NCBI GenBank assembly: GCA_016209985.1
Contig: JACQVB010000115.1
Location: 7,210 to 71,209, forward strand
Origin: Gemmatimonadota bacterium
GTDB lineage: Bacteria; Gemmatimonadota; Gemmatimonadetes; Gemmatimonadales; GWC2-71-9
DNA length: 64,000 bases
Direction of reading: 5' to 3'
Shown in pieces: positions 25,438-53,793 of the stretch (positions are counted from its first letter, which is position 1; the number at the start of each line of letters is the position of its first letter). Under the pieces are notes generated by a model that ran no database searches, had not been told where the DNA came from, and saw only the letters and a list, made by a program, of their open reading frames with translations. The translations under genes and the position numbers were made by a program.

Positions 25438-25482
25438 GAACCCTTACAACCCTTAGATCCCTTAGAACCCATAGAACCTCTC
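25438..25482. repeat. 9-bp tandem repeat x5 (GAACCCTTA-like)
   Basis: gaaccctta caaccctta gatccctta gaacccata gaacctctc. It abuts and overlaps the P3 stop codon, in the P3-P2 spacer. Confidence 0.8.
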
Positions 25483-28255: not shown

Positions 28256-28272
28256 CCGATCCTCCGCGAAAC

Positions 28273-28361
28273 GGCGTGAAGAGGGAAGAGTAAAGCACGC
28301 GTATGCTGTTCGGACTAGCTGGCCGAACCTAGGGACGAGGTCTCACGCTTCCCGCTTCCCC
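28273..28361 (-). promoter_or_regulatory. GA-box/CT-box inverted repeat in the P5-P4 spacer
   Basis: Plus-strand GGCGTGAAGAGGGAAGAG (28273-28290) and CTCACGCTTCCCGCTTCCCC (28342-28361). The 13-nt cores are complementary at 11 of 13 positions. In mRNA sense the CT arm ends 17 nt before the P4 ATG. Confidence 0.45.
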
Positions 28362-28370
28362 ATTGTTACC

Positions 28371-29705
28371 TCAGCTCACTTTCTTCTTCTGCAATCCGTC
28401 CGGTCCGTTATCCCAATCCTGCGCGCTGGAGTTGTTCGGCATGCCCCATTGGTGCCCGTTCCAGCCGTCAAACCCGTCCATCTTCAAGGCCCAGAACCCG
28501 GTGGTCATGTCGCTGATGACGATCAGCCCATCGGCGTTTCGCACGTCGACGCCGAATGCGCCGTTGTTGACGCCACCGACGCCCGAGGGATGGTTGATGT
28601 AGGCCAGCCGGTTCTGGTGCGGCCCGTCATAGGTGTCGTAGTAGCCCACCGTGTAGGGGTTGGTGGGGTCCATCATGTTGAAGACGGACAATCCATCCTC
28701 GTAATCGGAAACGAAGACGTAGGGCCAGCGCACCTCGTGGTTGTGCGGCAAGTTCTTCCAGTCGGTCATCCAGGCGCCGATGGGGCGGCTGATCGCTTTC
28801 ACGTCGCCATCGAGCCCGGGTTTCAGGTCGAAGATGCGGAGTGGGGAATACTGATACTCGAGTTCCGCCACCGCGTAGCGGCCATCGGGGGTGGGGGTGA
28901 AGGTGTGACCACTGGTGAGACCCGCGAAACCGGTGACTGAGGTTAGCAGTCGCGGCGCGTCCAGGTTGGTGATGTCGTAGACGTGATAGCCGCCGGTTCC
29001 GGCCCCGTAGAATCGATCCTGCTGCGACGCGGGATCGAATCCGACATAGAAATCATGGTAGCTCCCCCGAGCCGGATCGCTGGGATTGGGCACCCGGGCG
29101 ACCATGCCGAATCCGGAATCGCCGCTCACCGTCCTGCCGATGTCGTAGACCCGGGCTCCCGGGTTGCCACCGGTGGTGAACACCAGGGCGCGGGCGGTGG
29201 AATGCTTGTAGGCGAAGATCTCGTGGAACCCGCCGCGGGTGTCCGGCGTGCGAACCCGCGCCACCTCTCTCACTTTCGACGTGTCGGGCAATCCGGTCAC
29301 GTCGAAGACGCTCATGCCCAGGTCGCCGTCCACCCCAGTCGACGTGTACTGATAGGATTGCACGAAGTAGTACCGGCCACCGGTCTTGACGTAGGCGGGC
29401 GCCAGGGCTCCTGAGCCGGTGTGGAGCTCGGGATTCTCCATCCGCCAGGAGTACATCACGTACGCTTTGGAGGGGTCCCGGAGGCTGACGACGTCGAAAC
29501 CGCTGAACTGGTAGCGCCGGGTGACATAGGCGTACGGGCGCGAGAGCTCCTGTTCGATCTCGATGTCGGTGGTGCTGAAGTCGCCGCCGAGCGGGATATG
29601 GACCACCGCGCGGATATTGGTGCTGCCCTGCTTGCCGGGAGGGTGCTGGGCGAGAAGGGGGGGAACCGCCAGGCCGAGCGCAAGGGACGTGACCAGGATG
29701 CGCAT
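28371..29705 (-). CDS. LVIVD-like beta-propeller paralog P5
   Basis: ORF 28371..29759, with ATG 29705 (GGAG upstream). The signal is MRILVTSLALGLAVPPLLAQ. It carries the family motifs and tail. Confidence 0.85.
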   Translation of the reverse strand: MRILVTSLALGLAVPPLLAQHPPGKQGSTNIRAVVHIPLGGDFSTTDIEIEQELSRPYAYVTRRYQFSGFDVVSLRDPSKAYVMYSWRMENPELHTGSGALAPAYVKTGGRYYFVQSYQYTSTGVDGDLGMSVFDVTGLPDTSKVREVARVRTPDTRGGFHEIFAYKHSTARALVFTTGGNPGARVYDIGRTVSGDSGFGMVARVPNPSDPARGSYHDFYVGFDPASQQDRFYGAGTGGYHVYDITNLDAPRLLTSVTGFAGLTSGHTFTPTPDGRYAVAELEYQYSPLRIFDLKPGLDGDVKAISRPIGAWMTDWKNLPHNHEVRWPYVFVSDYEDGLSVFNMMDPTNPYTVGYYDTYDGPHQNRLAYINHPSGVGGVNNGAFGVDVRNADGLIVISDMTTGFWALKMDGFDGWNGHQWGMPNNSSAQDWDNGPDGLQKKKVS

Positions 29706-29723
29706 GGATGCTCCGGTTACGGG

Positions 29724-29753
29724 TTGACAGAAGATTGACCGCACCGAATATAT
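29724..29753 (+). promoter_or_regulatory. Candidate sigma70-like promoter for SusC copy 3 (TTGACA-N17/18-AATATAT)
   Basis: TTGACA at 29724-29729 is followed 17-18 nt later by an AT-only stretch aatatat, in the 109-bp divergent spacer between P5 and SusC copy 3. Confidence 0.3.
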
Positions 29754-29814
29754 GGGCAAGGTAAACCCTGCCGGGCAGTACCAGATCTACTCGTTTGCCG
29801 ACCAGGAGATGGAT

Positions 29815-32800
29815 ATGCGACAAAAACTCGTTTGGCTGTTCGCGGTGCTCTGGCTGGTCCCCATGCTTTCGGCGTCGGCCCAAACCCGCATCGTCACGGG
29901 ACGCGTAGCCGATTCCCTCACCGGTGAGCCGGTCACGTCCGGGCAAGTCGCGGTTCAGGGGACCACCGTAGCCACCACCATCAAGGACGACGGCACCTTC
30001 ACCCTCCCGGTGCCGGTACGGGACGTGACGCTTTCCATCCGGAGCATCGGTTTCAAGCGCAAAGACGTCGCGGTGCCGGTCAGCCTGGCCACGGTAGCCG
30101 TGTCCATGGAGCGGGACTACTTCCAGCTCGAGGCCATCGTGGTGACCGGCCAGGCCACCGGGGTGGAGAAGCGCAACCTGGCCAATGCGGTCTCGACAGT
30201 GAGCGCCGCCCAATTGGCGGCAGTCCCGGCGCAGAGCATCGAGCACGCGCTCACCGGCAAGATGGCGGGCGCCGACATCCAGCAGAACACCAACGCCCCG
30301 GGTGGCGGCACGCGGGTCAAGCTGCGGGGCATGACGACGCTGACGGGCGCCTACACGCCCCTGTATGTGGTGGACGGCGTGATTGTGAGCGACGCGTCCA
30401 TCTCCGGCGGCGTCAACATCGTGACCAAGGCCTCCACCGCGGGCGGCGTGATCGCCGTGAGCGCGGAGAACAACACCAACCGCATCGCCGATCTCAATCC
30501 CAACGACATCGAGAGTGTCGAGGTGATGAAAGGCGCGGCGGCGTCTGCCGTTTACGGCTCCAAAGCGTCCAACGGCGTGATCCTGATTACCACCAAGCGG
30601 GGCAGGGTGGGCGCCCCTCAGTTTTCACTCACCCAGCGCTTTGGCGTATCGCAGATTTCCCGGAAGATGGGCCTGCGGGATTTCTCCACTGATTCCGCCG
30701 GTGCGGTGGAAGCCAAAGGTCCGCTCGCCTCGAGCGTGTGGAAGGCGAACACGTTTTTCGATCATGAGGAGGAGCTGTACGGGCGCGAGCCGCTCTCCTA
30801 TGAGACCGACGCCAACGTCAGCGGCGGAACCGAGAACACCCGGTACTTCGCTTCCGGGCTGGTGAAGCATGACGGCGGCATCGTCAATCACACCTACTAC
30901 GACAAACAGTCGCTGCGGCTCAACCTGGATCAGACGGTCGGTTCCCGGGTGAGCTTCGGCGCCGGCGCCCAGGTGATCCACTCGGTGGCGGCGCGCGGGC
31001 TGTTCCACAACGACAACTCCGGCACCAGCTACGGCATGGTGCTGCCCCACACCCCCAGTTACGTGGACCTGCGGGCGGTCTGCCCCGACGGGAGCCGCCA
31101 GGTCGAATGCGAGGGCGGGGTATACCCGGCTAACCCGTTCGTGGCCAGTAATCCACTCCAGACCGCGGCCCTGCTGGACTATACGGAAGGCGTCTGGCGC
31201 AGCATCCTGTCGGGTAACGGGAGCGTCGATCTGGTGAAGACGCCCCAGCACAACCTCCGCTTCCTCACCAACGGCGGCGTGGATTTCTTCAACCAGAAGG
31301 ACTACCTGTATTCGCCGCCCGAGCTGCTGTATGAAGACGACGATGGGCTGCTCGGCACCGTCAGTACCACCAATGCCCAAAACGTGAACCTCAATCTGAA
31401 CACCAACCTGGTCCACGTATTGAAGCCGAGCAGCGGCAGCTTTTCCGCGACCACCTCAGCCGGCCTGCAAATGGAGTGGCGCGATCTGGACATCATCCGC
31501 AACGTGGCCCAGAACTTGTTGGGCGGGCTGGCGGAGGTGAACAGCGGATCCGTGGCCCTGCTCGACGAAGACCGGAGCTACGTCAAGGATCAGGGCCTGT
31601 TCGTGCAAGAGGAGGTGCTGACTCTGCGCGAGCGGCTGCTGGTTACCGGCGGGCTCCGTGCCGACCGCAGCAGCAACAATGCCGATGCCGAGAAGTGGCT
31701 CTTCTATCCCAAGGCGTCCGCCTCCTACCGGCTGGCCGTCGGCGGCGGGGCCCTGACCGAGCTCAAGCTGCGGGCCGCCTTCGGACAATCCGGCAATCAG
31801 CCGTTGTACGGCCAGAAGTTCACCGAGCTGGCCGGCGGCAACATTGCGGGCATCAACGCCTTCAGGGTGGGCGGGACCCGCGGGGCGGTGGACTTGCGTC
31901 CTGAGCGCCAGCGCGAGATTGAGGCGGGGTTCGACGCCACGTTGTTCAGCGGCCGGACGACTCTGGAAGTCACCGGCTTCGAAAAGAAGATCACCGACCT
32001 GCTGCTGCGCCGCAGTCTCCCCCCCTATAGCGGATTCACCATCGAAATCTTCAACGGGGGCGCCATGCGGACGCGCGGCATCGAGACGGCCCTGAACATC
32101 GCGGCGGTGCAGAAGCCAAATCTCCAGTGGAGCGCCCGCTTCACGTTCGCGAAGACGCGGGCCATCATCACCAGCCTGCCAGTGCCGGAGTACCGCACCG
32201 GCGGTACGCTGACTGGCTTCCATATCATCAAGGAAGGCTACTCGCCCACCGACGTGTTCGGATTCGACTCCACCGCCACCACGGCCGATCCGGTCTTTGC
32301 CGCGACCGGGCTGGTCAAGATCGGCGACAAGGAGCCGACCTTCACCATGGGTCTCTCCAACGACCTCAACGTGAAGCGGTTCCACTTGTATTTCCTGTGG
32401 GACTGGAAAAAGGGTGGGTCGGCCGGCAACGGCGCCCAGCGGCACTTCGACCTGTCACTCAATGCCGTAGGGTCCTGCAACGTGCGGGTTCCCAGCGGAT
32501 CGACCACGAAGTGCATTGGGACCGCGCGCATCGACCCACTGTACACGCGCAAGATGTCCAGCACGCTGGTCATGGATAACAGTTGGGTGAAACTCCGCGA
32601 GCTCACGCTGTCGTTCGACCTGCCACAGTCGCTGACTCGCAGCCTGTGGAGCGGGGCACGCTACATCCGGGCCAGCTTGAGCGGCCGCAATCTGCTCATG
32701 TTCACGCCCTGGCTGGGCTACGATCCCGAAGGCGTGGAGACCGGCTTCAATGCCTCTCCCACCCGCGAGCTGGGGCCCTATCCCCCGCAGCGCAGCCTTT

Positions 32801-32826
32801 GGTTCTCCCTCGACTTTGGATTCTGA
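29815..32826 (+). CDS. SusC/RagA-type TonB-dependent transporter, copy 3
   Basis: ORF 29752..32826, with ATG 29815 (AGGAG 6-7 nt upstream). The signal is MRQKLVWLFAVLWLVPMLSASA/QTRIVTGRVADSLTGE. It has CarboxypepD_reg-like and plug domains and a large barrel ending WFSLDFGF. Confidence 0.9.
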   Translation: MRQKLVWLFAVLWLVPMLSASAQTRIVTGRVADSLTGEPVTSGQVAVQGTTVATTIKDDGTFTLPVPVRDVTLSIRSIGFKRKDVAVPVSLATVAVSMERDYFQLEAIVVTGQATGVEKRNLANAVSTVSAAQLAAVPAQSIEHALTGKMAGADIQQNTNAPGGGTRVKLRGMTTLTGAYTPLYVVDGVIVSDASISGGVNIVTKASTAGGVIAVSAENNTNRIADLNPNDIESVEVMKGAAASAVYGSKASNGVILITTKRGRVGAPQFSLTQRFGVSQISRKMGLRDFSTDSAGAVEAKGPLASSVWKANTFFDHEEELYGREPLSYETDANVSGGTENTRYFASGLVKHDGGIVNHTYYDKQSLRLNLDQTVGSRVSFGAGAQVIHSVAARGLFHNDNSGTSYGMVLPHTPSYVDLRAVCPDGSRQVECEGGVYPANPFVASNPLQTAALLDYTEGVWRSILSGNGSVDLVKTPQHNLRFLTNGGVDFFNQKDYLYSPPELLYEDDDGLLGTVSTTNAQNVNLNLNTNLVHVLKPSSGSFSATTSAGLQMEWRDLDIIRNVAQNLLGGLAEVNSGSVALLDEDRSYVKDQGLFVQEEVLTLRERLLVTGGLRADRSSNNADAEKWLFYPKASASYRLAVGGGALTELKLRAAFGQSGNQPLYGQKFTELAGGNIAGINAFRVGGTRGAVDLRPERQREIEAGFDATLFSGRTTLEVTGFEKKITDLLLRRSLPPYSGFTIEIFNGGAMRTRGIETALNIAAVQKPNLQWSARFTFAKTRAIITSLPVPEYRTGGTLTGFHIIKEGYSPTDVFGFDSTATTADPVFAATGLVKIGDKEPTFTMGLSNDLNVKRFHLYFLWDWKKGGSAGNGAQRHFDLSLNAVGSCNVRVPSGSTTKCIGTARIDPLYTRKMSSTLVMDNSWVKLRELTLSFDLPQSLTRSLWSGARYIRASLSGRNLLMFTPWLGYDPEGVETGFNASPTRELGPYPPQRSLWFSLDFGF

Positions 32827-32828
32827 CC

Positions 32829-34310
32829 ATGCGCGCTCATATCTCGACTAACTGGACGCGGGTGGCGCGTGGCGCCGCCGGCGGGTGTGCGTTGGTGTTC
32901 CTGGGTGCCTGCATGGACCTCACCAACGTGCCAAACTATGACAACGAGAGCCTCGACGCTCTGACCAACGACCCGACCCCGGCGCGGGTGGCCACCGCAG
33001 CGCAGGGGATGATGGCAGGAATGCGCCAGAACCTGGTTGGAGGATTCAGCTATCTGTCGATGATGGCCTGGCGCGGACGGGACGGGTTCAACCTCGACCC
33101 GGCCACCCCGGGCCTGGTAACGGAAAACCTGGTCGGGCCCCTGGGGCCGGAATCCACGAACTATTGGGCGGAGGGTTATCGGGTCATCAAGTTGGGGAAC
33201 GTGATCCTGGCTGCGTTGGATAAGGTCACCGGCCTGACCGCGGCGGAAAAAGAGGCCACCAGGGGGTATGTGAAAACGATCCAGGCCCACGCCTTCCACC
33301 AGATCATTATCGTGCATGATCAGGCCGGTGCGGTCATCGACGTCGACGTGGACCCGAGTGCCGGAGCAGCCGCCGGCGTCGCCGGCCGAGACGCGGTCTA
33401 TACCAAAGTGACCGATCTGCTGGACCAGGCCAAAACTCACCTTCAGGCCGGCGGCAGCGCATTCCCGTTCAAGCTGAGCCCCGGATTTACCGGATTCTCC
33501 ACGCCTTCGACGTTCCTCAAGTTCAACCGCGCGTTGCGGGCACGGGTCGATGTGCATCGGGCTTCGCTGTTGACTCAGGCCGCGCGGTGGACCGAAGCGC
33601 TGAATGCGCTGACCGAGTCCTTCCTCGATACCACCCAGCCGCTCACGCTGGGTGTCTATCACTCGTTCAGCACCGGTTCGGGCGACATCAGCAACACGTC
33701 GTACGATCCCACCGGGCGCGCGCTGCTCGCGCATCCGAGTATCGAGGGAAAGTTCGACCGCACCACGCAGACGCTCACGACCCGAACCTATCAGCTGCGG
33801 GCCGACGGCAGCCCGGATCTCCGTTTTAGCAGCAAGATCGGCTTCCGGATCATCAACGGCGTCCGCACGCCGGTTTCGCAGTCCAACGTGTTCTCCGATC
33901 TGCTGATCAAGGTCTTCAGCAGCAACAACTCGGCGCTGCCGATCATTCGGAACGAGGATCTCATCCTGCTCCGTGCCGAAGCCCGGCTGGCGACCGGCGA
34001 TCGGGTGGGAGCGCTCGCCGACATCAACTTGATCCGAGTCAACTCGGGAGGGCTCACCGCTATCGCCGATCCCGGCGACCCCGGTTTGATGAACGAGCTG
34101 ATCTACAACCGGCGCTACTCGCTCTTCTACGAGGGATGGCGCTGGGTGGACATGCGGCGCTGGGGCCGGTTGAGCGAATTGGAGCAGGACCTGGCGTCGC
34201 ACCGGATCTTCCGGTGGTCGCCGCTCCCGCTGGCGGAATGCACCGCGCGGAGTCCGCAGCCGGGGGGCTGCGCGGCTGAAGCAGGGTTGACGGGCGTACC
34301 GCTGTTCTGA
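32829..34310 (+). CDS. SusD/RagB-family lipoprotein, copy 3
   Basis: ORF 32583..34310, with ATG 32829 (junction TGACCATG). The signal is ...GGCALVFLGAC. The C-terminus is IYNRRYSLFYEGWRWVDMRRWGRL. Confidence 0.85.
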   Translation: MRAHISTNWTRVARGAAGGCALVFLGACMDLTNVPNYDNESLDALTNDPTPARVATAAQGMMAGMRQNLVGGFSYLSMMAWRGRDGFNLDPATPGLVTENLVGPLGPESTNYWAEGYRVIKLGNVILAALDKVTGLTAAEKEATRGYVKTIQAHAFHQIIIVHDQAGAVIDVDVDPSAGAAAGVAGRDAVYTKVTDLLDQAKTHLQAGGSAFPFKLSPGFTGFSTPSTFLKFNRALRARVDVHRASLLTQAARWTEALNALTESFLDTTQPLTLGVYHSFSTGSGDISNTSYDPTGRALLAHPSIEGKFDRTTQTLTTRTYQLRADGSPDLRFSSKIGFRIINGVRTPVSQSNVFSDLLIKVFSSNNSALPIIRNEDLILLRAEARLATGDRVGALADINLIRVNSGGLTAIADPGDPGLMNELIYNRRYSLFYEGWRWVDMRRWGRLSELEQDLASHRIFRWSPLPLAECTARSPQPGGCAAEAGLTGVPLF

Positions 34311-34330
34311 CGGCCCGCTAGTTGGAAAGC

Positions 34331-34362
34331 AACGGCGGCCGGGAGTTCTTCCGGCCGCCGTT
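34331..34362. terminator. Bidirectional hairpin between SusD copy 3 and P6 (12-bp perfect stem)
   Basis: AACGGCGGCCGG gagttctt CCGGCCGCCGTT, lying between convergent stops at 34310 and 34390. Confidence 0.45.
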
Positions 34363-34389
34363 CGCGTTGATACTGTCCGGTTCTCTCGC

Positions 34390-35757
34390 TCAGGTCGTCT
34401 TCCCACCCTTGGGCGCTCCCTCCGGGCCGTTATCCCAGTCCTGGGCGGAGCTGATGTTGGGCATGCCCCAGTCATGGCCGTTCCAGCCGTCGAAGCCCTC
34501 CAGCCGGAAGGCCCAGAAACCGCTGTGCATGTCGGCCATCACAATGAGCCCGTCGGCGTTGCGCACGTCCACCCCGTAGCCTCCCCGCGCCTCGGTCCCT
34601 ACGCCGTAGGGAGTCCGGTAGATGAACGTATCATAGAAGCCGACCTGGACCGGATCGGTGGGATTCCGCAGGTCCAGCACGTGCAGGCCGTCCTCATACA
34701 TGGCGAGGAAGGCGTAGGGCCAGCGGACCTCGATCATGTGGCCGGACTTCTGGTAGTCGGGCGTCCATTCCGCGATTGGCTGGCGCACGACCTGTACCTG
34801 GCCCTCGAGTGCCGGCTTCAAGTCCCAGATCCGGACCGGCTGATGCCCCAGCGAGGTCATGAGGGTGAGCGCGTAGCGGCCATCGGGTGTCGCGACGAAC
34901 GTGTGCCCGCCCGATTGCATCGATGATTGGGCAATGACGGTCGCGAGCAATTTGGGTGCGCTCACGTTGGAAACGTCGTAGACGTAGTTCCCGCCGAGTG
35001 GCGTGGTCTCCGGGCCACCGCCGTAAAACACGTCGCGATGGTTTACGACGTCGTATGCCACATAGACATCGTGGTAACCGCGGGCGGCCCCGCGGGGCTC
35101 CGGCAGGGGAATTCCTCCGATCAGCCCGTGGTCCGCGGAGCCGGCGAGAAACTTCTCCATGTCGTAGACCAGGGCGCCGTGAGGATATCCGGCCGGTGTT
35201 TCCACGGTGAGAAACAGCAGGACTCGTCCATCCGAGTGCTTGTAGGTAAAGAGGTTGTGCGCACCGCCCTTGGCGTCCGGCACGTGTATCCGGCCGGCCT
35301 CCTTCACCCGGGTGGTATCGGGAAGGCTGGTGACATCCACCACCACCGCGGACAGATCCTGGTCGGGACCGCTGCCCCGGAATTGGAAGGCTTCGACATA
35401 GTAGTAGCGGCGATCGAGCTTGAAGTACTTACCGTTCACGCCGCGGCCCTGATGGAGCTCCGGGTTTTCGATGAACCAGGAATACAGCAAGCGCGCCCGG
35501 GTCGGCACGCGAAGATCGATGAAGTTGAACCCATCAGGCCGCCGGCCGCGCGACACGTAGGCGTAGGGCCGGGAAAGCTCCTGCTCGATTTCGATGTCGG
35601 CGATCTGGATCTCGGTGCCGTTGCGCGGGCCGGAGAGCGGGAGGTGCGACATCAAGGTGATGTTGGGGCTGCGGTTCTTTCCGGCGGGATACTGACCGAA
35701 GGCCGACCCTCCGAGCGGAAGCAGGATGACGACGCTCGCAAGAACAATCGGTCGCAT
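34390..35757 (-). CDS. LVIVD-like beta-propeller paralog P6
   Basis: 455-aa ORF with the signal MRPIVLASVVILLPLGGSAFGQ. It is the most divergent member but keeps IEIEQELSRPYAYV, RGYHDVYVAYD, WPYAFLAMYEDGLHVLDLRNPTDP and the tail ...GFDGWNGHDWGMPNISSAQDWDNGPEGAPKGGKTT. Confidence 0.9.
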   Translation of the reverse strand: MRPIVLASVVILLPLGGSAFGQYPAGKNRSPNITLMSHLPLSGPRNGTEIQIADIEIEQELSRPYAYVSRGRRPDGFNFIDLRVPTRARLLYSWFIENPELHQGRGVNGKYFKLDRRYYYVEAFQFRGSGPDQDLSAVVVDVTSLPDTTRVKEAGRIHVPDAKGGAHNLFTYKHSDGRVLLFLTVETPAGYPHGALVYDMEKFLAGSADHGLIGGIPLPEPRGAARGYHDVYVAYDVVNHRDVFYGGGPETTPLGGNYVYDVSNVSAPKLLATVIAQSSMQSGGHTFVATPDGRYALTLMTSLGHQPVRIWDLKPALEGQVQVVRQPIAEWTPDYQKSGHMIEVRWPYAFLAMYEDGLHVLDLRNPTDPVQVGFYDTFIYRTPYGVGTEARGGYGVDVRNADGLIVMADMHSGFWAFRLEGFDGWNGHDWGMPNISSAQDWDNGPEGAPKGGKTT

Positions 35758-35773
35758 GGATAATCTCCCGAAA

Positions 35774-35876
35774 GGCGTGAAGCGTAACTGCGAGTGAAGA
35801 GGGAGGAGTACTGCACCCCCAAACCGAGGCTGCGGGCGTCGTACTCTTCCCTCGTTTTTACTCTTCCCTCTTCCCT
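35774..35876 (-). promoter_or_regulatory. GA-box/CT-box inverted repeats in the P7-P6 spacer
   Basis: GGCGTGAAGCG (35774-35784) and GAGTGAAGAGGGAGGAGTAC (35792-35811) face GTACTCTTCCCTC (35841-35853) and TACTCTTCCCTCTTCCCT (35859-35876). GAGGGAGGAGTAC pairs with GTACTCTTCCCTC at 12 of 13 positions. Box 35774 lies 16 nt from the P6 ATG. Confidence 0.45.
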
Positions 35877-35880
35877 GTCG

Positions 35881-37257
35881 TTAGCTCACCTTCCCCGGTT
35901 TCGGCGCCCCGTCCGGTCCATTGTCCCAGTCCTGCGCACTCGACTGATTGGGCATGCCCCACTGGTGTCCGTTCCACCCGTCGAACCCCTCCAGCTTGAA
36001 GGCCCAGAATCCAGTATAGAGATCGGAGGTGACGATCAGACCATCGGCATTGCGGACGTCGATCCCGAAATTGCCGTTGGTGACGCTGCCTTCGCCGGGC
36101 TGGGCGCGCGGCTGGCCGATGGGATCGTTCTTGTTGATCAGGATCGGACCGTCGTACGTGTCGTAATAGCCCACGGTATACGGATTGGTGGGGTCCATCA
36201 TGTTGACGGCGTGAACGCCGTCTTCGTAACTCGAGACGAACACGTAGGGCCAGCGCACCTCGTGATTGTGAGGGAGTCCCTGCCAGCGCTGAGTCCAGGC
36301 GCCGATCGGCCGGGACACCGTCTTCACGGTTCCGTCATAGGCCGGCTTGAGATCGATGAACCGCAGCGGCGCGTACTGATATTCCGATTCGAGCACCGCG
36401 TAGCGGCCATCCGGGGTCGGGGTGAAGGTGTGGCCGCTCTGCATACCGGCGACGCCGGTGGCCGACGCGATCAGCTTGGGCTCGGCGAGATTGGTGACGT
36501 CGTACACGTAGTAGCCGCCGCCGCCCGCGCCGAAGAAACGGTCCTGCTTTGAGACCGGATCGTAGCCGACGTAGAAATCGTGATAGCCGCGGGTTACGCC
36601 GCTCGCGACCGATGTCGGGTTGGGAATCTTGCCGACCAGCCCATAGTCCTTGTCGCCCGCCACGGTCTTGGCGATGTCGTAGACCCGCGCGTGCGGCTGA
36701 CTGGAGGTGGTAAAGAGCAGGGCCCGGCCGTCGGAGTGCTTATAGGAATAGGTTTCGTGAAAACCACCGGGCGCGTCGAGCGCCCGAATCCGGGTCAGCT
36801 CGCGGATTTTGGTCGTGTCCGGGAGGCCGGTGATGTCGAACACGATCGCGCCCAAGTCCGCATCGGGGCTGCCCGGCTGGAATTGGAATGACTGGGTGAG
36901 ATAATACCGGCCGTTGATCTTCAAGTGCATGGCGGAGAGCGCCCGTCCTTGGTGAAGATCGGCGTTCTCGATCTTCCAGGTGTAGAGCAGGCGGGCCCTG
37001 CTCGGGTCCTTGAGATCGATGATGTAGTAGCCGAAATGGGACCGTCCCGAGACGTAGGCGTACGGCCGCGACAGCTCCTGTTCGATCTTGATGTCGTTGG
37101 CCTGGAGAGGACCGCCGAGCGGGATATGGGCCACCAGCTTCATGTTACGGCTGCCGGCGGTTCCGGGTGCGGGGTGCTGGTCCCCGCGCTGGGCGAAGAC
37201 CGGAACGCTGAATCCGAGCAAGCAGGCCAGCGCGGCGCAAAGGGATTTGCGTCTCAT
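35881..37257 (-). CDS. LVIVD-like beta-propeller paralog P7
   Basis: ORF 35881..37302, with ATG 37257 (GGGAGGA upstream). The signal is MRRKSLCAALACLLGFSVPVFAQ. It carries the family motifs and tail. Confidence 0.85.
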   Translation of the reverse strand: MRRKSLCAALACLLGFSVPVFAQRGDQHPAPGTAGSRNMKLVAHIPLGGPLQANDIKIEQELSRPYAYVSGRSHFGYYIIDLKDPSRARLLYTWKIENADLHQGRALSAMHLKINGRYYLTQSFQFQPGSPDADLGAIVFDITGLPDTTKIRELTRIRALDAPGGFHETYSYKHSDGRALLFTTSSQPHARVYDIAKTVAGDKDYGLVGKIPNPTSVASGVTRGYHDFYVGYDPVSKQDRFFGAGGGGYYVYDVTNLAEPKLIASATGVAGMQSGHTFTPTPDGRYAVLESEYQYAPLRFIDLKPAYDGTVKTVSRPIGAWTQRWQGLPHNHEVRWPYVFVSSYEDGVHAVNMMDPTNPYTVGYYDTYDGPILINKNDPIGQPRAQPGEGSVTNGNFGIDVRNADGLIVTSDLYTGFWAFKLEGFDGWNGHQWGMPNQSSAQDWDNGPDGAPKPGKVS

Positions 37258-37275
37258 ACGTCCTCCCGGGGAAAA

Positions 37276-37341
37276 GCGTGAAGAGGGAAGAGGGAAGAGC
37301 AAGATGTTTTGCTACTCCCTCTCCACTCACTTTCACTCCTC
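37276..37341 (-). promoter_or_regulatory. GA-box/CT-box inverted repeat in the SusD4-P7 spacer
   Basis: GCGTGAAGAGGGAAGAGGGAAGAG (37276-37299) faces the pyrimidine-rich GCTACTCCCTCTCCACTCACTTTCACTCCTC (37311-37341), with imperfect pairing. The box lies about 17 nt from the P7 ATG. Confidence 0.4.
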
Positions 37342-37345
37342 GGCG

Positions 37346-38767
37346 TCAGCTCGTGGTGCGGAATCCGCTGACCTGACTGCACCCCGTGGGCTTAGGGTCG
37401 GACCGCTGGTCGCACTCGGCCTGGGGCAAGGGAACCTTGTCGAACACCAAGTCCCCGGCGCCGCGGGGCCCCTTGAGATCGGTCAGCCGCCCAAACCGTC
37501 GCAGATCCACCCAGCGATGCCCGTACTCCAGGAGGAGCGAGTACCGGCGGTTGTACAGCAGTTCGTTGTCGAAGGCCGCGTCATCGGCGATCGATGGAAG
37601 GCCGGCCAGCCCCCCGGACCCCACCCGCACGGTATTGATGTCGCTGAGCGCCCCCGCCTGGTCGGCGGTGCGCCAGCGTGCTTCCGCCCGGATGAGCAGC
37701 AGCTCCTCGTTCTTGATGATCGGGATCGGGGAGGTCGACGTCGGATAAAGGGTCCAGCGCCACCCGGACTCCACGCCGGTGTGCTTCCGCGTCTGGAACA
37801 CGCCACCGGGGCCAACGATGCGTGCCATCTTGGTGGTGACCCGCAAGTCTTTGCTTCCATCCGGCCGGTTTTGGGCCTCCACGGGCAACATGGAGTCTGC
37901 CACGTACGAGAAGCCGTTGGGGTCGAAGAATCCGTTCACCGCGTCGCCGGAGGCCGTCGAGTAGATGTTCTTGGGCCCGAGGTCCATGGCCGCCGTTGCA
38001 CTAACAAAGGATCCTCCGAGGGCGGTGAGGGCGGCATTGTAGTCCCCCATCTCGATGGCCACCCGCGCGCGGAGCGCGCGATTGAACTGGATGAACGTGG
38101 CCGGGGTGTTGAACCCGGCGAATCCAGTACCGAGATTGAACGGGAAGGTCGTGCCCGCGTTGAGCAGGCGTTGGCGGGCGTCGTCCAGCCGGGTGGCGAT
38201 ATAAGTGAACGCCTGGGCCTTGGAGGCCACCGAAGGCAGCTGGATCGGGTCGATGCTTTCGGTAGCGGTGACGACGCCGAATACGTCCTGCGCCCGCAAC
38301 TGCCCGTGCAGCAGGAAGGCTTCCACCGTCATGGCCACGCCCCGGATGCCTTCCTTCTGCGCGTCGGTCATGGCGGTCCCGACTTTGTCCACGCCGGCGC
38401 GGATGGTGTTGGCCAGCCGCACACTCTGATAGGTGTTGCCCCAGCCGGCCCCGCCGCCGGTTCCGGGGGTCAGTACCACGTCGAATGCGTTGAGCGACGT
38501 TTGGGCGACGTCGATGTAATACCCCTCGCGTCCGTAGTGCGCGAAGGTGCTGATGTTGGTCGACGTTCCCGTCCGCATGGCCGCGAGCAGGCCCTGGGTC
38601 GCGCTGATCAGGATCGCGGGGGTGGGGTTGTCTTCGAGCGCGTTCAGGCTGGGATTGTCCGCGTTCGGGATTTCAAAATCCCCGCAAGCGGCGCTCATGG
38701 CAACCGCAGCGGCCACAATGATTCCGGTGATGGCTTGCATGGCTGTGTGCCTCGTGGCGGTTGTCAT
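37346..38767 (-). CDS. SusD/RagB-family lipoprotein, copy 4
   Basis: 473-aa ORF with the signal ...IVAAAVAMSAAC. The junction with SusC copy 4 is again TGACCATG. The C-terminus is LLYNRRYSLLLEYGHRWVDLRRFGRL. Confidence 0.85.
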   Translation of the reverse strand: MTTATRHTAMQAITGIIVAAAVAMSAACGDFEIPNADNPSLNALEDNPTPAILISATQGLLAAMRTGTSTNISTFAHYGREGYYIDVAQTSLNAFDVVLTPGTGGGAGWGNTYQSVRLANTIRAGVDKVGTAMTDAQKEGIRGVAMTVEAFLLHGQLRAQDVFGVVTATESIDPIQLPSVASKAQAFTYIATRLDDARQRLLNAGTTFPFNLGTGFAGFNTPATFIQFNRALRARVAIEMGDYNAALTALGGSFVSATAAMDLGPKNIYSTASGDAVNGFFDPNGFSYVADSMLPVEAQNRPDGSKDLRVTTKMARIVGPGGVFQTRKHTGVESGWRWTLYPTSTSPIPIIKNEELLLIRAEARWRTADQAGALSDINTVRVGSGGLAGLPSIADDAAFDNELLYNRRYSLLLEYGHRWVDLRRFGRLTDLKGPRGAGDLVFDKVPLPQAECDQRSDPKPTGCSQVSGFRTTS

Positions 38768-38769
38768 GG

Positions 38770-41700
38770 TCAGAAGCCCAGGTCCAGCGAGAACCAGAAC
38801 GAACGGGTGGATGGATACGCCGCGAACTCGCGGGTATACGCCACGTTGTTGGAGCGCTGGTTACCGCTGTGATAATTCGCGGCTGCCGGATCGGTGCCCT
38901 TGAACATATCCCCACCGATGATGCCCTGGAGATGGATGAGGTTTCGACCGGCGAGGGACACCCGCGCGCTCCGGATGCCGCTCCACAGGCGGTTGGTGAA
39001 CGATCGAGGCAGGTCCAGCCCGAGGGTTAATTCCCGCAACTTCACGTACCCCGCATTCCGCCAGTAATTCATCGGGACCTGGTTCTGCAGTCTGAGACGG
39101 CACTCGCCGATGGTGGTCGTTCCACCGCAGTCGCCGGGCTGCTCGAAATCGTACCCGTTGCGCGCGATGTCCCAATGCCGCCAGGTGCCGGCGTTCATTC
39201 GGCCGCCCCGGACCGCTTCGATACTGGTGGAGAGACTGATGGCCCGGTACTGGACGGTATTGAGCAGGCCGCCGGTCCAGCTCGGCGCGGCGTCAGCCTG
39301 GTACTTGAAGACCAGGGTAAACGGCGCGGTTGGGGAGCTGCGCGGCAGCGTGTCGTTGCTCCACAACGCCGTCGCCGATCCGCCCTCCACAATGCGGATC
39401 GCGCCGGAGGATCCACCGGCCGCGTTGAACGCGGGAACCGGCAGCTTGGTGATCTTGCTCCGGTTCATCGCCCAGTTGAGGCTCGAGGTCCAGGTGACGG
39501 TGCTGGTGCGGACCGGGGTCAGCGTCAGGCCCCACTCCAGCCCGCGCACCCGCATCTCCGCACCGTTGAAGATCTCGGACGAGAACCCGGTGACCGGCGC
39601 GAGGGTGCGCTGCAGCAACAGGTCTTTGCTGGACTTCTGGTAGACCGATACCTCCAGCAGTGCCCGGCCGCCCAACATCTGCGCGTCGAACCCCGCCTCG
39701 ATCTCGGTCTGCCGTTCCGGCTTTGCATCGGCGGCTCCGGCGGCCGCGGCGACGGACACGCCGCCGACGCCGCCGACGTTGGTCGCGTTGAGATTGGTGA
39801 ATTTCTGGCCGTACAGCGGGCGATTGCCCGTTTGGCCAAACGCCGTCCGGAGCTTCAGCTCGTCAATGGGCCCGGGGAAGGAGGTAAACCGGTACGAGGC
39901 CGAGGCTTTGGGATAGTAGAAGAACTTCTTGGTGTCCGCGTTGTTGCTGCTGCGATCCGCCCGGACGCCGACGGTGAGCAGGAGTTTTTCGCTCAACAGC
40001 AATTCCTCCTGTCCGAAGAAGCCGAAGTCCTTCACCCGGGTAAAGTCCTGCTCGACTTGAATGCGGGAGCCGGCGGCCACCGTGGGCGTGCCCGCGACGA
40101 GCCCCTTGGTGGCAGTCCGGTCCAGCATCAGCCGCTGGTATTCGTACTGCGTGCCGAACTGCGTTGTCGCGGACAGGAACCCGCCCGCGGACCGGTAGGA
40201 GTGCACGATGTTCGCGTTGACGTTCCCCTGGAAGCTGTTCCCGAAGGAGCGCACCACGGTTCCCGGCAACCCATCGTTCGGCTCGTACTGCAGCTCAGGT
40301 GGGGAAACGATGTTGTCTTCCTGGATGAACTGATCGAATCCGCCGGCCAGTATCAGCCGCAGCGTGTTCTGGGTGCTGGAAATGGCGTCGAGTTGGGCCC
40401 GGCCGGTGGTCAGCATGCGCCACACTTCTTCGTCCCGGGTCATGGCGACGGCGGAGTGGAGCGGATTGCTGGTGACGTACGGGTTCACCGGATAGACGCC
40501 ACCCTCGCACTTGGCCTGCCTGGTTCCGTCGGGGCAGGTGGCGCGGAGATCGAAGAAGTTCGGGTGGTGCATGAGCACGAAATAGTAGCTGGTACCCGCA
40601 TTGTCGTTGCCGAACATGCCGCGATCGTTCGCCGTGCGAATGACCTCGGTCCCGGTCGAGAGCTTGAGGCGCCGGCCCACTTGCTGGTCGAGATTGAGGC
40701 GAACGGACGCCTTGTCCGCAAAGGTCTCCAGCACGATGCCGCCTTCGTGCCGCACCAGGGCCGACGCGAAGTACTGGGTCGTCTCGGTACCGCCACTCAT
40801 GTTCACCGAGGTCTCGTACTGCAGCGGCTTGTAGCCGGAGATGTCGTCTTCGAGGTTGACGGCAGTGTAGCCCGGGGTCCAGTGTTGGCGGGCTGTCGCG
40901 CCGAATGCCTGGATCGCCGAGGTAGAGTCTGAGAAGTAGCGCGATCCGAAGGTGAACGACCGCATGGCCACGCCCACGCCCTGCCGGATCTGGAACCGCG
41001 GTGCGCCCAGGCGGCCGCGCTTGGTGGTGATCAGAATGACGCCGTTGGCCGCCTTGGAGCCGTAGATCGCGGCGGCGGACGCCCCCTTCAGAACTTCAAC
41101 GCTCTCGATGTCGTTCGGATTCAGATCGGCGATCCGATTGACGGGGTTCATCTGCTCGACGCTGGTGATGTTGTTGGCGCCCTGCGCCAGCGAGACCGCG
41201 TTCATGCCGCCTTCGATGCGCGCATCGCTGGCGATGACGCCGTCAACCACGTAGAGGGGATTGCCGCCTCCGATGATGGAGGTCGCGCCGCGGAGCCGGA
41301 CTCGCATGCCGCCACCGGGCGCGCCGGAATTCTCCTGGAGCTGCACTCCGGCCATCTTGCCCGAGAGCGCCTGTTCCAGGGTCGGGGCTGAGACCTTGGC
41401 CACCTCCGCGGCGTTTACGGTCGCGACCGCATTGGCCAGATTCCGCTTCTCGACTCCGGTGGCCTGGCCGGTGACAACGATCGCCTCGAGCTGGAAGTAG
41501 TCCCGCTCCAGGTTGACGTCCACGGCGTTCTGGCTCGCTGACACCGGCACGTCCCGGCGCTTGAACCCGATGCTGCGAATGGTCAGCACCACGTCGCGCG
41601 GCGGGACCGCAATGGTGAAAGTGCCGTCATCCTTCAGGGTCGTACCGATTGTGGTGTTCGCGACCGACACCTGGCCCGACGTCACCGTCTCTCCAGTGAG

Positions 41701-41799
41701 TGAATCGGTGACACGGCCGGTGACGATGCGGGTCTGCGCCGAGAGCGGCGCGCCGGTCAGCCAGGCCGCGACCAACAAGAAGCCAACAACAGTGCGCAT
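38770..41799 (-). CDS. SusC/RagA-type TonB-dependent transporter, copy 4
   Basis: 1009-aa ORF with the signal MRTVVGFLLVAAWLTGAPLSA/QTRIVTGRVTDSLTGE. It has the plug ...SVEVLKGASAAAIYGSKAANGVILITTKRGR and ends FWFSLDLGF. Confidence 0.9.
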   Translation of the reverse strand: MRTVVGFLLVAAWLTGAPLSAQTRIVTGRVTDSLTGETVTSGQVSVANTTIGTTLKDDGTFTIAVPPRDVVLTIRSIGFKRRDVPVSASQNAVDVNLERDYFQLEAIVVTGQATGVEKRNLANAVATVNAAEVAKVSAPTLEQALSGKMAGVQLQENSGAPGGGMRVRLRGATSIIGGGNPLYVVDGVIASDARIEGGMNAVSLAQGANNITSVEQMNPVNRIADLNPNDIESVEVLKGASAAAIYGSKAANGVILITTKRGRLGAPRFQIRQGVGVAMRSFTFGSRYFSDSTSAIQAFGATARQHWTPGYTAVNLEDDISGYKPLQYETSVNMSGGTETTQYFASALVRHEGGIVLETFADKASVRLNLDQQVGRRLKLSTGTEVIRTANDRGMFGNDNAGTSYYFVLMHHPNFFDLRATCPDGTRQAKCEGGVYPVNPYVTSNPLHSAVAMTRDEEVWRMLTTGRAQLDAISSTQNTLRLILAGGFDQFIQEDNIVSPPELQYEPNDGLPGTVVRSFGNSFQGNVNANIVHSYRSAGGFLSATTQFGTQYEYQRLMLDRTATKGLVAGTPTVAAGSRIQVEQDFTRVKDFGFFGQEELLLSEKLLLTVGVRADRSSNNADTKKFFYYPKASASYRFTSFPGPIDELKLRTAFGQTGNRPLYGQKFTNLNATNVGGVGGVSVAAAAGAADAKPERQTEIEAGFDAQMLGGRALLEVSVYQKSSKDLLLQRTLAPVTGFSSEIFNGAEMRVRGLEWGLTLTPVRTSTVTWTSSLNWAMNRSKITKLPVPAFNAAGGSSGAIRIVEGGSATALWSNDTLPRSSPTAPFTLVFKYQADAAPSWTGGLLNTVQYRAISLSTSIEAVRGGRMNAGTWRHWDIARNGYDFEQPGDCGGTTTIGECRLRLQNQVPMNYWRNAGYVKLRELTLGLDLPRSFTNRLWSGIRSARVSLAGRNLIHLQGIIGGDMFKGTDPAAANYHSGNQRSNNVAYTREFAAYPSTRSFWFSLDLGF

Positions 41800-41911
41800 G
41801 ATTTACCCCTCCAACGAGAGCCTGTGGGAAACCTTTCAAGACGGCGGGGTGAAGAGGTGTTGCCGAACGTATGCCAACCCCGCCCAAATATGAGGCGGGG
41901 GACCTAATTAG

Positions 41912-42762: not shown

Positions 42763-42929
42763 GGGGAAAGGCGACGGTGGGAAAGGCGACGGTGGGAAAG
42801 GCGACGGCGCCAGAATGCGACGGCGGAATGCCGCGAGCCGTCGCCCACCCCCGCTGTCGTTTGGCCCTGCCGTCGCCTTACCCGCCGTCGCTTCACCCGC
42901 CCTCGCTCCAACGCTGTCGCATTTCCCCC
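42763..42929. repeat. Inverted array of about 15-bp GGGAAAGGCGACGGT-type units
   Basis: Three perfect tandem units lie at 42764-42778, 42779-42793 and 42794-42808, followed by two degenerate ones. About six units then follow in the opposite orientation (CCGTCGCCCACCC, ...CCGTCGCCTTACCC, GCCGTCGCTTCACCC ... GCTGTCGCATTTCCCCC). The array fills the spacer between the OMP gene and the C-N hydrolase gene. Confidence 0.85.
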
Positions 42930-49507: not shown

Positions 49508-49582
49508 GGGGCAGAGGCAGGAGAGGCGGAGAGGCGAGCGGCAGTGTTACGGGATCTCTGCCGCTCTGCCTCTCTGCCTTTT
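49508..49582 (+). terminator. Long GC-rich hairpin built from GGCAGAG-type short repeats, followed by TTTT
   Basis: The left arm GGGGCAGAGGCAGGAGAGGCGGAGAGGCGAGCGGCAG pairs with the right arm CTCTGCCGCTCTGCCTCTCTGCC, including a 9-bp perfect core GAGCGGCAG/CTGCCGCTC. TTTT follows. It lies 10 nt after the SusD copy 5 stop. Confidence 0.55.
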
Positions 49583-51850: not shown

Positions 51851-51852
51851 CA

Positions 51853-53737: not shown

Positions 53738-53793
53738 CCTGACCGTTCGTCCCGCTTCCGGCTCTGAGGTTCGCACCGCATATTTTCCCCCCC

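What the first reader, a model, noticed from the sequence alone, without database searches (positions are those of the whole stretch)
28273..41857. Conserved GA-box / CT-box intercistronic hairpins positioned 16-17 nt from propeller start codons
Seen: three spacers inside the minus-strand propeller operons carry the plus-strand motif G(G/A)CGTGAAG(A/C)G, extended to GTGAAGAGGGAAGAG-like purine runs. They lie at 28273-28290, 35774-35811 and 37276-37299. Each also carries a complementary pyrimidine-rich arm in the same spacer (28342-28361, 35841-35876, 37311-37341). Arm pairing is 11/13 and 12/13 in the first two cases and imperfect in the third. In mRNA sense, CTCTTCCCTCTTCACGC(C) ends 17, 16 and 17 nt before the ATGs of P4, P6 and P7, directly abutting their GGAGG-type Shine-Dalgarno sequences. 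The purine arm follows the preceding stop codon. A fourth copy (sense CCTCTTCACCCC, 41846-41857) precedes SusC copy 4. Inference: this is a family-specific RNA element, acting as a processing or stability hairpin. Alternatively it is a three-part switch in which the CU-rich arm pairs either with the GA arm or with the purine-rich SD. It could set the relative expression of paralogs within the operon. It could equally be a DNA site for a regulator.
Basis: partly seen in the sequence, partly recalled or inferred. Interest (0 to 1): 0.55.

Follow-up and report, generated by a model that had tools for sequence, protein, structure and literature searches.

The report
Repeat-built hairpins between operon genes
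The purine-box/pyrimidine-box hairpins in front of three propeller genes are real. They are local copies of a general, fast-evolving class of intergenic hairpins built from 7-base tandem repeats in this group of Gemmatimonadota, not a conserved regulator specific to the propeller family.

Summary
Three minus-strand spacers (28256-28370, 35758-35880, 37258-37345) each carry a GGGAAGA-type arm after the upstream stop codon. Each also carries a CTCTTCC-type arm ending 16-18 nt before the next ATG, and each folds into a long stem-loop that leaves the Shine-Dalgarno sequence free. Four of the seven propeller paralogs in the window lack the element. Orthologous spacers in related genomes lack it or carry an unrelated hairpin. 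No Rfam family matches. The same architecture, meaning a tandem array of short units (mostly 7 nt) plus its inverted complement with the G-rich arm first, also occurs next to unrelated genes. Examples are CN-hydrolase, SusD, a protease/GH38 pair, aminotransferase and GreA, in the window and in four related lineages. The CT-box array also turns up at non-orthologous loci in other genomes. Close strains differ by gain or loss of a single 7-nt unit in one arm. The most likely role is an intra-operon RNA stem-loop that forms, processes or protects transcript 3' ends. The closest known cases are the Xanthomonas heptamer-repeat inverted pairs and the Haemophilus hmw repeat hairpin cut by RNase III. 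Interest is moderate to low: a new member of a known kind.

The parts
28270..28364 (-). S1 stem-loop in the D>C spacer. GA arm 28342-28361, CT arm 28273-28290, SD GGAGG 28261-28265, ATG 28255.
35769..35880 (-). S2 stem-loop in the H>G spacer. GA blocks 35861-35875 and 35841-35853, CT arm 35794-35811, second degenerate unit CTTCACGCC 35774-35782, SD GGGAG 35765-35769.
   Evidence: (I13)
37266..37343 (-). S3 stem-loop in the SusD(I)>H spacer. GA arm 37311-37341, CT arm (CTCTTCC)x3 37276-37299, SD GGGAGG 37262-37267.
41846..41857 (-). Weak fourth match CCTCTTCACCCC in the CN-hydrolase>SusC spacer. It is predicted to pair with the SusC SD, but the fold is not significant and the motif is not conserved.
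42764..42907 (-). Same class, different unit. The arms are 15-nt arrays, (TGAAGCGACGGCGGG)n and (ACCGTCGCCTTTCCC)n. The palindrome fills the spacer upstream of the CN-hydrolase ATG (42730).
   Evidence: (I1)
49513..49579 (+). Same class: (AGAGGCGG)3 / (TCTCTGCC)3 hairpin followed by UUUU, after a plus-strand SusD gene.
49980..50028 (+). Same class: (CGGTAAGGG)n / CCTTGCCGCCCTTC hairpin.
51851..51917 (+). Same class and a canonical intrinsic terminator: (CAGGTGC)4.6 arms followed by U7.
55910..56036 (+). Same class: (GGCGGGTC)3 palindrome between an FHA/trypsin-like protease gene and a GH38 gene.
   Evidence: (I2)
53697..53738 (.). Same class: (ACCACGC)2.4 palindrome in a divergent spacer.
25438..25478 (-). 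Lone 9-nt array (GGGTTCTAA)x4.6 just after the stop codon of propeller B. It has no complementary arm, and four or five G3 tracts lie on the sense strand.

Best explanation
S1-S3 are three copies of one repeat family, with unit CTCTTCC and complement GGGAAGA. That family belongs to a lineage-wide class of intergenic palindromes. In this class each arm is a short tandem array, most often of 7-nt units, and the G-rich arm comes first. Shown: the elements are transcription-unit-internal spacers that fold into long imperfect stem-loops (29-40 pairs). The stem-loops begin 0-8 nt after the upstream stop codon and end just before an unpaired Shine-Dalgarno sequence. They turn over quickly: unit gain or loss in a single arm, replacement by other unit families, and presence or absence between orthologous spacers. 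The CT-box array recurs at non-orthologous loci in other genomes, so its 17/17 identity between S1 and S3 reflects recent copying or homogenisation rather than ancient conservation. Inferred: in the polycistronic mRNA these stem-loops act at cistron boundaries as 3'-end-forming or 3'-end-protecting structures. They could be partial terminators, or double-strand processing sites and 3'-exonuclease barriers. Either way, upstream segments (SusC/SusD, first paralog) and downstream paralogs would reach different steady-state levels. Slippage in the arrays changes stem length and could tune this effect. The effect would be generic to the class, not specific to propeller genes.
For: Anatomy and folds. 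Period-7 arrays. Class members beside unrelated genes in the window. Class members in L001 (aminotransferase>hydrolase (GGGAAAA)3; PROP>PROP 15-mer family). In L084/85/89 (GTGAGTN and GTAGGGA arrays in nearly every spacer). In L123 (GreA/cupin, M28 peptidase). In L126. An automated count found 21 array palindromes, 18 G-arm-first against 3 C-arm-first (p=0.0015), 13 with period 7, and 8 of 10 in the window non-coding. The hairpin starts 0-8 nt after the stop codon in 19 of 22 cases, while the distance to the next start ranges from 0 to 84 nt. Some class members are bona fide terminator-like: window 51851 with U7, 49513 with U4, and the L126 SusD>G' perfect 16-bp stem with U5 (z -5.9) directly before the SD. 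A hairpin after SusD recurs in four of five lineages with unrelated sequences. The CT-box is dispersed: L066 has (CCTCTTC)6.6-ACGCTTCAC between galactokinase and a xylose-isomerase-like gene. L126 has TTACTCTTCCCTCTTCCCT... directly before the CN-hydrolase ATG and shares 16 nt with S1. Analogy from the literature: the hmw (ATCTTTC)n/G-rich hairpin is cut by RNase III (PMC12721329). Intercistronic stem-loops set transcript ratios in the cip-cel operon (PMC4423207). High-GC species have longer terminator stems and shorter U tracts (PMC13613805).
Against: There are no transcript data. S1-S3 lack a U tract: 1-2 T in the 8 nt after the stem, and the terminator scan flags none of them. The stems start so close to the stop codon that a terminating ribosome would melt the 5' arm. 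Sense and antisense strands fold equally well, so nothing points specifically to the RNA level. S1 is no more stable than shuffled sequence. Rapid turnover and uncompensated unit indels fit equally well with elements under little or no selection.
Confidence: 0.5

Rival explanations
1. Non-functional by-product. Heptamer microsatellites arise by slippage in permissive spacers. They are turned into palindromes by template switching (quasi-palindrome correction) or spread as selfish dispersed repeats. They are tolerated because they leave the SD free.
For: Single-arm 7-nt indels between near-identical strains, and wholesale replacement of one spacer. Presence or absence at orthologous spacers. 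Many unrelated unit families per genome. Lone arrays without a partner (25438-25478; L066; L126 4463-4498). No sense/antisense asymmetry. The lower-GC PUL at 8465-21654 has none.
Against: There is a strong G-arm-first bias, 18:3. The elements are anchored at the stop codon. Hairpins of unrelated sequence recur at the same gene junctions in several lineages. Some members carry proper U tracts.
Confidence: 0.27
2. The CU arm pairs either with the GA arm or with the downstream SD. A ribosome terminating on the upstream cistron melts the GA arm, and this couples or uncouples translation of neighbouring paralogs.
For: CU:SD duplexes of -10 to -15 kcal/mol are possible. The GA arm binds a generic anti-SD about as well as the real SD does, around -10 kcal/mol. 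The GA arm starts within ribosome reach of the stop codon. In S4 the CT-box pairs with the SD in the minimum-free-energy fold.
Against: GA:CU is about twice as stable, and the SD is unpaired in all MFE and centroid folds of S1-S3. There is no conservation in orthologs. Class members with other unit sequences have no SD complementarity. The S4 fold is not significant (z -0.05).
Confidence: 0.08
3. DNA-level element. It could be a binding array for a regulator, a non-B DNA structure (cruciform or G-quadruplex), or a recombination hot spot that shuffles paralog cassettes.
For: A palindrome is strand-symmetric, and both strands fold equally well. Paralog number and order differ between close relatives, with breakpoints at spacers. 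A related class in Xanthomonas forms G4 in vitro (PMC4692102).
Against: S1-S3 contain no canonical G4 motif and no attC core sites. Unit sequences differ from locus to locus, which argues against one sequence-specific binding protein. No integrase or regulator gene lies beside the loci examined.
Confidence: 0.1

Closest known systems
GGGNATC heptamer repeats and their inverted pairs in Xanthomonas and Nostoc (Rehm et al. 2015, PMC4692102)
   Same: Tandem 7-nt G-rich units in non-coding DNA. [quoted passage not shown] Xanthomonas has 70-75 convergent inverted pairs able to form stem-loops. Unit number and sequence vary between close relatives while the type is kept. Function is unknown.
   Different: In Xanthomonas one consensus unit per genome dominates, with a preference for four units and for G4 formation. 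Here there are many unit families per genome (GGGAAGA, GTGAGTN, GTAGGGA, 8-, 9- and 15-mers). S1-S3 have two or three units and no canonical G4 motif. The phylum is Gemmatimonadota.
Haemophilus influenzae hmw1A 5'-UTR (ATCTTTC)n / G-rich hairpin processed by RNase III (PMC12721329)
   Same: A pyrimidine-rich heptamer array is transcribed upstream of a surface-protein gene and pairs with a purine/G-rich tract. This gives a long imperfect hairpin. Repeat number varies.
   Different: In hmw the repeat arm is 5' and the G-rich arm 3'. At least 11 units are needed and only one arm is a repeat array. The element lies downstream of a promoter, not between cistrons. RNase III cleavage and phase variation are demonstrated there and untested here.
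Intercistronic stem-loops of selective RNA processing and stabilisation (Clostridium cellulolyticum cip-cel operon, PMC4423207)
   Same: Stem-loops lie at the 3' ends of cistrons inside an operon of paralogous extracellular carbohydrate-related proteins. They are proposed to set transcript ratios.
   Different: Those stem-loops are not built from tandem repeats, and they are supported by mapped processing sites. No transcript data exist here.
REP / BIME / REPIN extragenic palindromes of proteobacteria (own knowledge)
   Same: Imperfect palindromes in spacers of co-directional or convergent genes. They occur in multiple copies and are known to protect upstream mRNA from 3' exonucleases.
   Different: REPs are near-identical copies of one 20-40 nt sequence, spread by a RAYT transposase. 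Here the arms are tandem arrays with many unit families. No RAYT was seen, and the copy number per genome could not be measured.
Intrinsic terminators of high-GC bacteria (PMC13613805)
   Same: Long G+C-rich stems with short U tracts. Some class members (51851, 49513, L126 SusD>G') fit fully.
   Different: S1-S3 lie inside operons, have 1-2 U after the stem, and are followed at once by an SD and a start codon.
Heptamer direct repeats upstream of start codons: TAACTGA in Beggiatoaceae (PMC4679880) and cyanobacterial STRR (own knowledge)
   Same: 7-nt tandem arrays lie a few nucleotides upstream of start codons of unrelated genes. Their phylogenetic distribution is patchy.
   Different: Those are direct repeats with no complementary arm and a single unit sequence.

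Membership tests
Conserved cis-regulatory RNA (riboswitch or leader type) specific to the propeller family | Present upstream of most family members | tested here: not met
   Three of seven paralogs in the window carry it. The spacers before 4004-5473 and before gene B are 28 and 36 nt, and B>A carries a different lone array.
Conserved cis-regulatory RNA (riboswitch or leader type) specific to the propeller family | Conserved at orthologous positions, with compensatory changes | tested here: not met
   Absent from the orthologous spacers in L001, L123 and L124/L125, and replaced by an unrelated hairpin in L126. The three-copy alignment shows no convincing covariation; the covariation term is +2.55.
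Conserved cis-regulatory RNA (riboswitch or leader type) specific to the propeller family | Match to a curated RNA family | tested here: not met
   Rfam 15 at gathering threshold finds only a tRNA. The E-value scan gives only spurious miRNA-type hits far below the gathering score.
Heptameric SSR inverted pairs (Xanthomonas type) | Tandem 7-nt units in both arms, in convergent (G-rich-first) orientation | tested here: met
   TRF reports period 7 at 28346-28360, 35861-35876 and 37280-37299. G-first against C-first is 18:3 across the class.
Heptameric SSR inverted pairs (Xanthomonas type) | [quoted passage not shown] | tested here: met
   The GA arms start 6-14 nt after the stop codon. The CT arms end 16-18 nt (S1, S3) or 36 nt (S2 main arm) before the ATG.
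Heptameric SSR inverted pairs (Xanthomonas type) | Unit-number polymorphism between close relatives | tested here: inconclusive
   Seen for sister elements in L084/L085/L089 as one 7-nt unit gained or lost. No close relative of the window genome could be retrieved for S1-S3.
Heptameric SSR inverted pairs (Xanthomonas type) | Four or more G3 tracts, giving G-quadruplex potential | tested here: not met
   No canonical G4 motif on either strand of S1-S4 or the element upstream of CN-hydrolase.
Intrinsic (Rho-independent) terminator | G+C-rich stem immediately followed by a U tract (at least 5 of 8) | tested here: not met
   S1-S3 have 1-2 T in the first 8 nt after the stem and are not flagged by the scan. 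The feature is met by class members 51851 and the L126 SusD>G' hairpin.
REP / REPIN | Tens to hundreds of near-identical copies genome-wide, with an associated RAYT gene | not testable with these tools
   The source MAG (protein MBI4501194.1, HY700_ locus tags) is absent from the searchable contig collections. No transposase was seen among the window proteins scanned.
RNase III-processed SSR hairpin (hmw type) / SRPS stem-loop | Mapped cleavage or stable 3' end at the stem, and an expression change when the stem is mutated | not testable with these tools
   The structural prerequisite is present: an imperfect duplex of 29-40 pairs. No transcript data are available.
Integron attC site | Inverse core RYYYAAC and core GTTRRRY at the ends of the palindrome | tested here: not met
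   Neither motif occurs on either strand of S1-S4 or the element upstream of CN-hydrolase.

The most novel reading that the evidence does not exclude
The array palindromes could be an actively propagated element class specific to this lineage. They have defined ends (TTAC-(TCTTCCC)n-TCTTCACGC), a G-arm-first rule and a 7-nt period. The cell may use them as evolvable 'rheostats': slippage changes stem length and so changes termination or RNase III-type processing at each cistron boundary. Dosage of SusC/SusD and of each propeller paralog could then drift quickly, which would be hmw-like contingency behaviour in a free-living soil phylum. The bare CT-box may also serve as an SD-independent, pyrimidine-rich translational leader, as seen directly in front of the CN-hydrolase start codon in three genomes.
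Probability: 0.12. Interest if true: 0.6.

Novelty: new member of a known kind. Interest (0 to 1): 0.35.

Why it matters
The analysis corrects an attractive but wrong reading of these hairpins as a paralog-specific riboregulator. It also documents that an under-studied phylum carries abundant, rapidly evolving hairpins built from tandem heptamers at cistron boundaries. Their positional rules match the unexplained Xanthomonas/Nostoc repeats. If the stems do set transcript 3' ends, they would be a simple and mutable way to tune gene dosage inside polysaccharide-utilisation-type operons. For annotation, such elements should be treated as generic intergenic repeats. They also cause gene callers to extend ORFs through them, for example the 50-55 aa ORFs in L084 and the end of the GT4 ORF in L126.

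Tried and rejected
1. Genome-wide positional bias of the 17-mer. The genome-contig scan returned 80 hits (the cap), about what chance predicts. Only two were Gemmatimonadota (L040, L066), and the window's genome was not among them.
2. A metagenome scan with CCCTCTTCACGCN{0,2}TTTCN{1,6}GGAG gave 33 hits. All were chance matches, mostly inside coding sequence, and none had a heptamer array.
3. Retrieving other contigs of the source MAG through its paralogs (P0094, P0142, P0114, and the window protein itself) failed. They are not in the index.
4. Rfam gave nothing.
5. Sense-versus-antisense stability was tried as a test for RNA-level selection. There is no asymmetry.
6. I first read 'G-arm first' as co-orientation with transcription. 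I rejected this because a palindrome shows the same arm order on both strands. Only the G-first versus C-first class bias is informative.
7. Covariation among the three copies could not be assessed. There are too few sequences and the alignment is poor.
8. Integron attC sites and G-quadruplexes are not supported.
9. Simple co-duplication of spacer and gene is unlikely. C, G and H are not each other's closest paralogs (51-56% identity, against 60-64% among H, D, B and A). Similarity stops at the ATG, and the 17/17 identity far exceeds the divergence of the genes.
10. A sigma-70 promoter reading finds no promoter-like sites in the spacers.
Full report
**Context**

The window comes from a Gemmatimonadota MAG. 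Gene G (34390-35757, minus strand) is 100% identical to NCBI protein MBI4501194.1, locus tag HY700_08535, on a 71.8-kb contig.

In mRNA sense, the minus-strand region reads as follows:
- glycosyltransferase (43658-44803)
- a 222-aa ORF
- CN-hydrolase K (41912-42730)
- SusC J (38770-41799)
- SusD I (37346-38767)
- propeller H (35881-37257)
- propeller G

A plus-strand SusC/SusD pair follows at 29752-34310. After it comes a second minus-strand operon, D (28371-29705), C (26867-28255), B (25481-26830) and A (23982-25367).

The 'propellers' are paralogs 50-64% identical to each other. They match TIGR04312 (choice-of-anchor B) weakly, and PF08309 (LVIVD repeat) is precomputed for several of their homologs. 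They belong to a very large Gemmatimonadota family. A seventh paralog lies at 4004-5473 on the plus strand.

Each of the spacers D>C (S1), H>G (S2) and I>H (S3) has the same layout in mRNA sense. A purine-rich block of GGGAAGA/GGGAAGC units comes shortly after the stop codon. A pyrimidine-rich block of CTCTTCC units ends in CTCTTCACGC. A short U-containing linker, a GGAGG-type Shine-Dalgarno sequence and the ATG follow.

- The 17-mer is exact in S1 and S3 and far above chance.
- TRF finds period-7 arrays in all three spacers.
- MFE folds give 29-40 pairs and leave the SD unpaired.
- Stability exceeds that of shuffled sequence for S2 and S3 (z -2.6 and -2.2) but not for S1 (z +1.1).
- The fourth 'copy' is only a 9-12 nt match. 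Its predicted pairing with the SusC SD is not better than chance.

**The element is not specific to the propeller family, nor conserved with it**

Four of the seven paralogs in the window lack it. Orthology can be established for several genes, and the hairpins do not follow it:
- Genes D and C are 83% identical to two adjacent genes of L001 (GCA_009692185.1). The spacer there is 32 nt with no hairpin.
- Orthologs of G (82-85% identical) follow an M28 peptidase with a 4-nt overlap in L123, and SusD with a 12-nt spacer in L124/L125.
- In L126 the G ortholog follows SusD after a 77-nt spacer. That spacer holds an unrelated perfect hairpin of CCGACGA units plus U5.
- The S4 motif is absent from the orthologous CN-hydrolase>SusC spacer of L126.
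- Rfam has no matching family.
- Scans of 596 Gb of genomes and of the JGI metagenome contigs found the motif only at chance level.

**What the hairpins are**

The same construction appears throughout the right-hand two thirds of the window, beside unrelated genes. It consists of a tandem array of short units plus the inverted complement of that array within about 150 nt. Examples:
- a 15-mer array palindrome that fills the spacer upstream of CN-hydrolase (42764-42907)
- (AGAGGCGG)3/(TCTCTGCC)3 followed by UUUU, after a plus-strand SusD (49513-49579)
- (CGGTAAGGG)n at 49980
- (CAGGTGC)4.6 followed by U7 at 51851, which is a textbook terminator
- (GGCGGGTC)3 between a protease gene and a GH38 gene (55910-56036)
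- (ACCACGC)n at 53697

Related genomes show the same construction:
- L001 has (GGGAAAA)3/(CCCCTTTT) between an aminotransferase and a hydrolase. It also has the 15-mer family between two propellers, a different spacer from the one that family occupies in the window.
- L084/L085/L089 have (GTGAGTN)n, (GTAGGGA)4 and GAGTGAG arrays in nearly every propeller spacer.
- L123 has them next to GreA/cupin and an M28 peptidase.
- L126 has four more.
- A more distant genome (L087) and the lower-GC PUL at 8465-21654 in the window have none.

An automated screen of eight Gemmatimonadota loci found 21 such palindromes:
- 13 have period 7.
- 18 have the G-rich arm first against 3 with the C-rich arm first (p=0.0015).
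- 8 of the 10 in the window lie in the roughly 7% of sequence that is non-coding.

The arm order is the same on both strands of any palindrome, so it says nothing about the direction of transcription. It does, however, match the 'convergent' rule reported for Xanthomonas.

**Evolution of the elements**

Near-identical strains (L084, L085, L089) differ by gain or loss of exactly one 7-nt unit in a single arm. In one spacer the whole array differs, (GTAGGGA)4 against GCAGTCA/GCTGTAA/GCAGTGA, while neighbouring spacers are about 98% identical. This indicates slippage and rapid replacement.

The CT-box array occurs at non-orthologous places:
- L066 has (CCTCTTC)6.6-ACGCTTCAC between galactokinase and a xylose-isomerase-like gene.
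- L126 has TTACTCTTCCCTCTTCCCT...CTCTTCCC directly in front of the CN-hydrolase ATG. It has no GA partner and shares 16 contiguous nt with S1, including the TTA flank.
- L040 has a single copy 17 nt before an ATG.

Genes C, G and H are not each other's closest paralogs, and sequence similarity stops at the ATG. The 17/17 identity between S1 and S3 is therefore best explained by recent copying or homogenisation of a dispersed repeat. Long-term constraint on a regulator is a poorer fit.

**Likely function**

Across 22 elements, the hairpin domain starts 0-8 nt after the upstream stop codon in 19 cases. The distance to the next start codon varies from 0 to 84 nt. The structures therefore belong to the 3' end of the upstream cistron.

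Some members are canonical terminators (51851; the L126 SusD>G' hairpin with z -5.9). A hairpin after SusD recurs in four of five lineages with unrelated sequences.

S1-S3 lack a U tract, so they are at best weak terminators. With 29-40 pairs they are plausible substrates for a double-strand endonuclease and plausible barriers to 3' exonucleases.

Published analogues:
- the H. influenzae hmw (ATCTTTC)n/G-rich hairpin cut by RNase III (PMC12721329)
- intercistronic stem-loops that set transcript ratios in the cip-cel operon (PMC4423207)
- the trend to long stems and short U tracts in high-GC bacteria (PMC13613805)

I therefore favour a generic stem-loop at the cistron boundary that forms or protects 3' ends (confidence 0.5).

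Rival explanations:
- Functionless microsatellite palindromes (0.27).
- A DNA-level element (0.10).
It is energetically possible but unsupported.

No test here separates the RNA level from the DNA level. Sense and antisense folds are equally stable.

**Comparison and novelty**

The nearest described phenomenon is the GGGNATC heptamer repeat of Xanthomonas/Nostoc and its 70-75 convergent inverted pairs. Those repeats show the same placement relative to stop and start codons, the same variability between relatives, and an equally unknown function (PMC4692102).

This case differs in three ways. There are many unit families per genome. S1-S3 have no G4 potential. The phylum is different. I found no paper describing such elements in Gemmatimonadota.

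I rate it a new member of a known kind. It is a real feature of moderate to low interest. What would raise the interest is transcript evidence that array length tunes expression.

Noticed in passing
window 25438-25478 (minus strand, B>A spacer): A lone 9-nt tandem array (GGGTTCTAA)x4.6 lies immediately after the stop codon of propeller B. It places four or five G3 tracts with 6-nt loops on the sense strand, which is a canonical G-quadruplex motif. It has no complementary arm.
   Followed up: partly
window 42731-42760; L126 4463-4501; L001 240-260: The CN-hydrolase start codon is preceded directly by a pyrimidine-rich tract and no Shine-Dalgarno sequence in three genomes (CTCTCACTTCCTCTC-ATG, CACTCTTCCCTGA-ATG, TTACCCCCCTC-ATG). 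This may be an SD-independent leader.
   Followed up: partly
window 23066-23827, 50032-50901, 51047-51850 (plus strand): Three stand-alone ORFs of 253-289 aa consist only of the SusC N-terminus (CarboxypepD_reg plus Plug). Each ends at a strong hairpin or repeat element. They are either truncated receptor remnants or genuine plug-only proteins.
   Followed up: partly
window 50891-50987: A 17-nt unit (GCGGCAGGTAGTCCTCT)x3.5 overlaps the end of ORF 50032-50901. It is followed by one of the rare C-arm-first palindromes, CCCCTCTCCC-ATC-GGGGAGAGGGG, and by (GGGGAGA)3.3.
   Followed up: no
window 8465-21654: The first PUL-like cluster has lower G+C (0.607 against 0.62-0.68) and lower GC3 (0.68-0.74 against about 0.8-0.86). 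It has no array palindromes in its spacers. It may have been acquired more recently.
   Followed up: no
L084 / L085 / L086 / L089 / L126 compared with the window: The number and order of tandem propeller paralogs differ between close relatives (8, 6 with fragments, 6, and 4+). The breakpoints lie at spacers. L086 carries a phage-integrase-like fragment where the array is interrupted.
   Followed up: partly
L001 9966-10003: The ortholog of gene C has no plausible start codon or full signal peptide after a 32-nt spacer; the called start is a GTG. Its 5' end, together with the hairpin, may have been deleted in that lineage.
   Followed up: no
L084 11390-11557 and 17804-17956; L126 3416-4498: Gene callers place 50-55 aa ORFs inside the repeat hairpins, or extend ORF ends through them. 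These are probably annotation artefacts caused by the elements.
   Followed up: no
window 58842-58914 (minus strand): A tRNA gene (Rfam RF00005, 60 bits) lies in a 271-nt spacer. The spacer also holds a C-arm-first terminator-like hairpin (CGCCCCCGAACC...GGTTCGGGGGCG).
   Followed up: no
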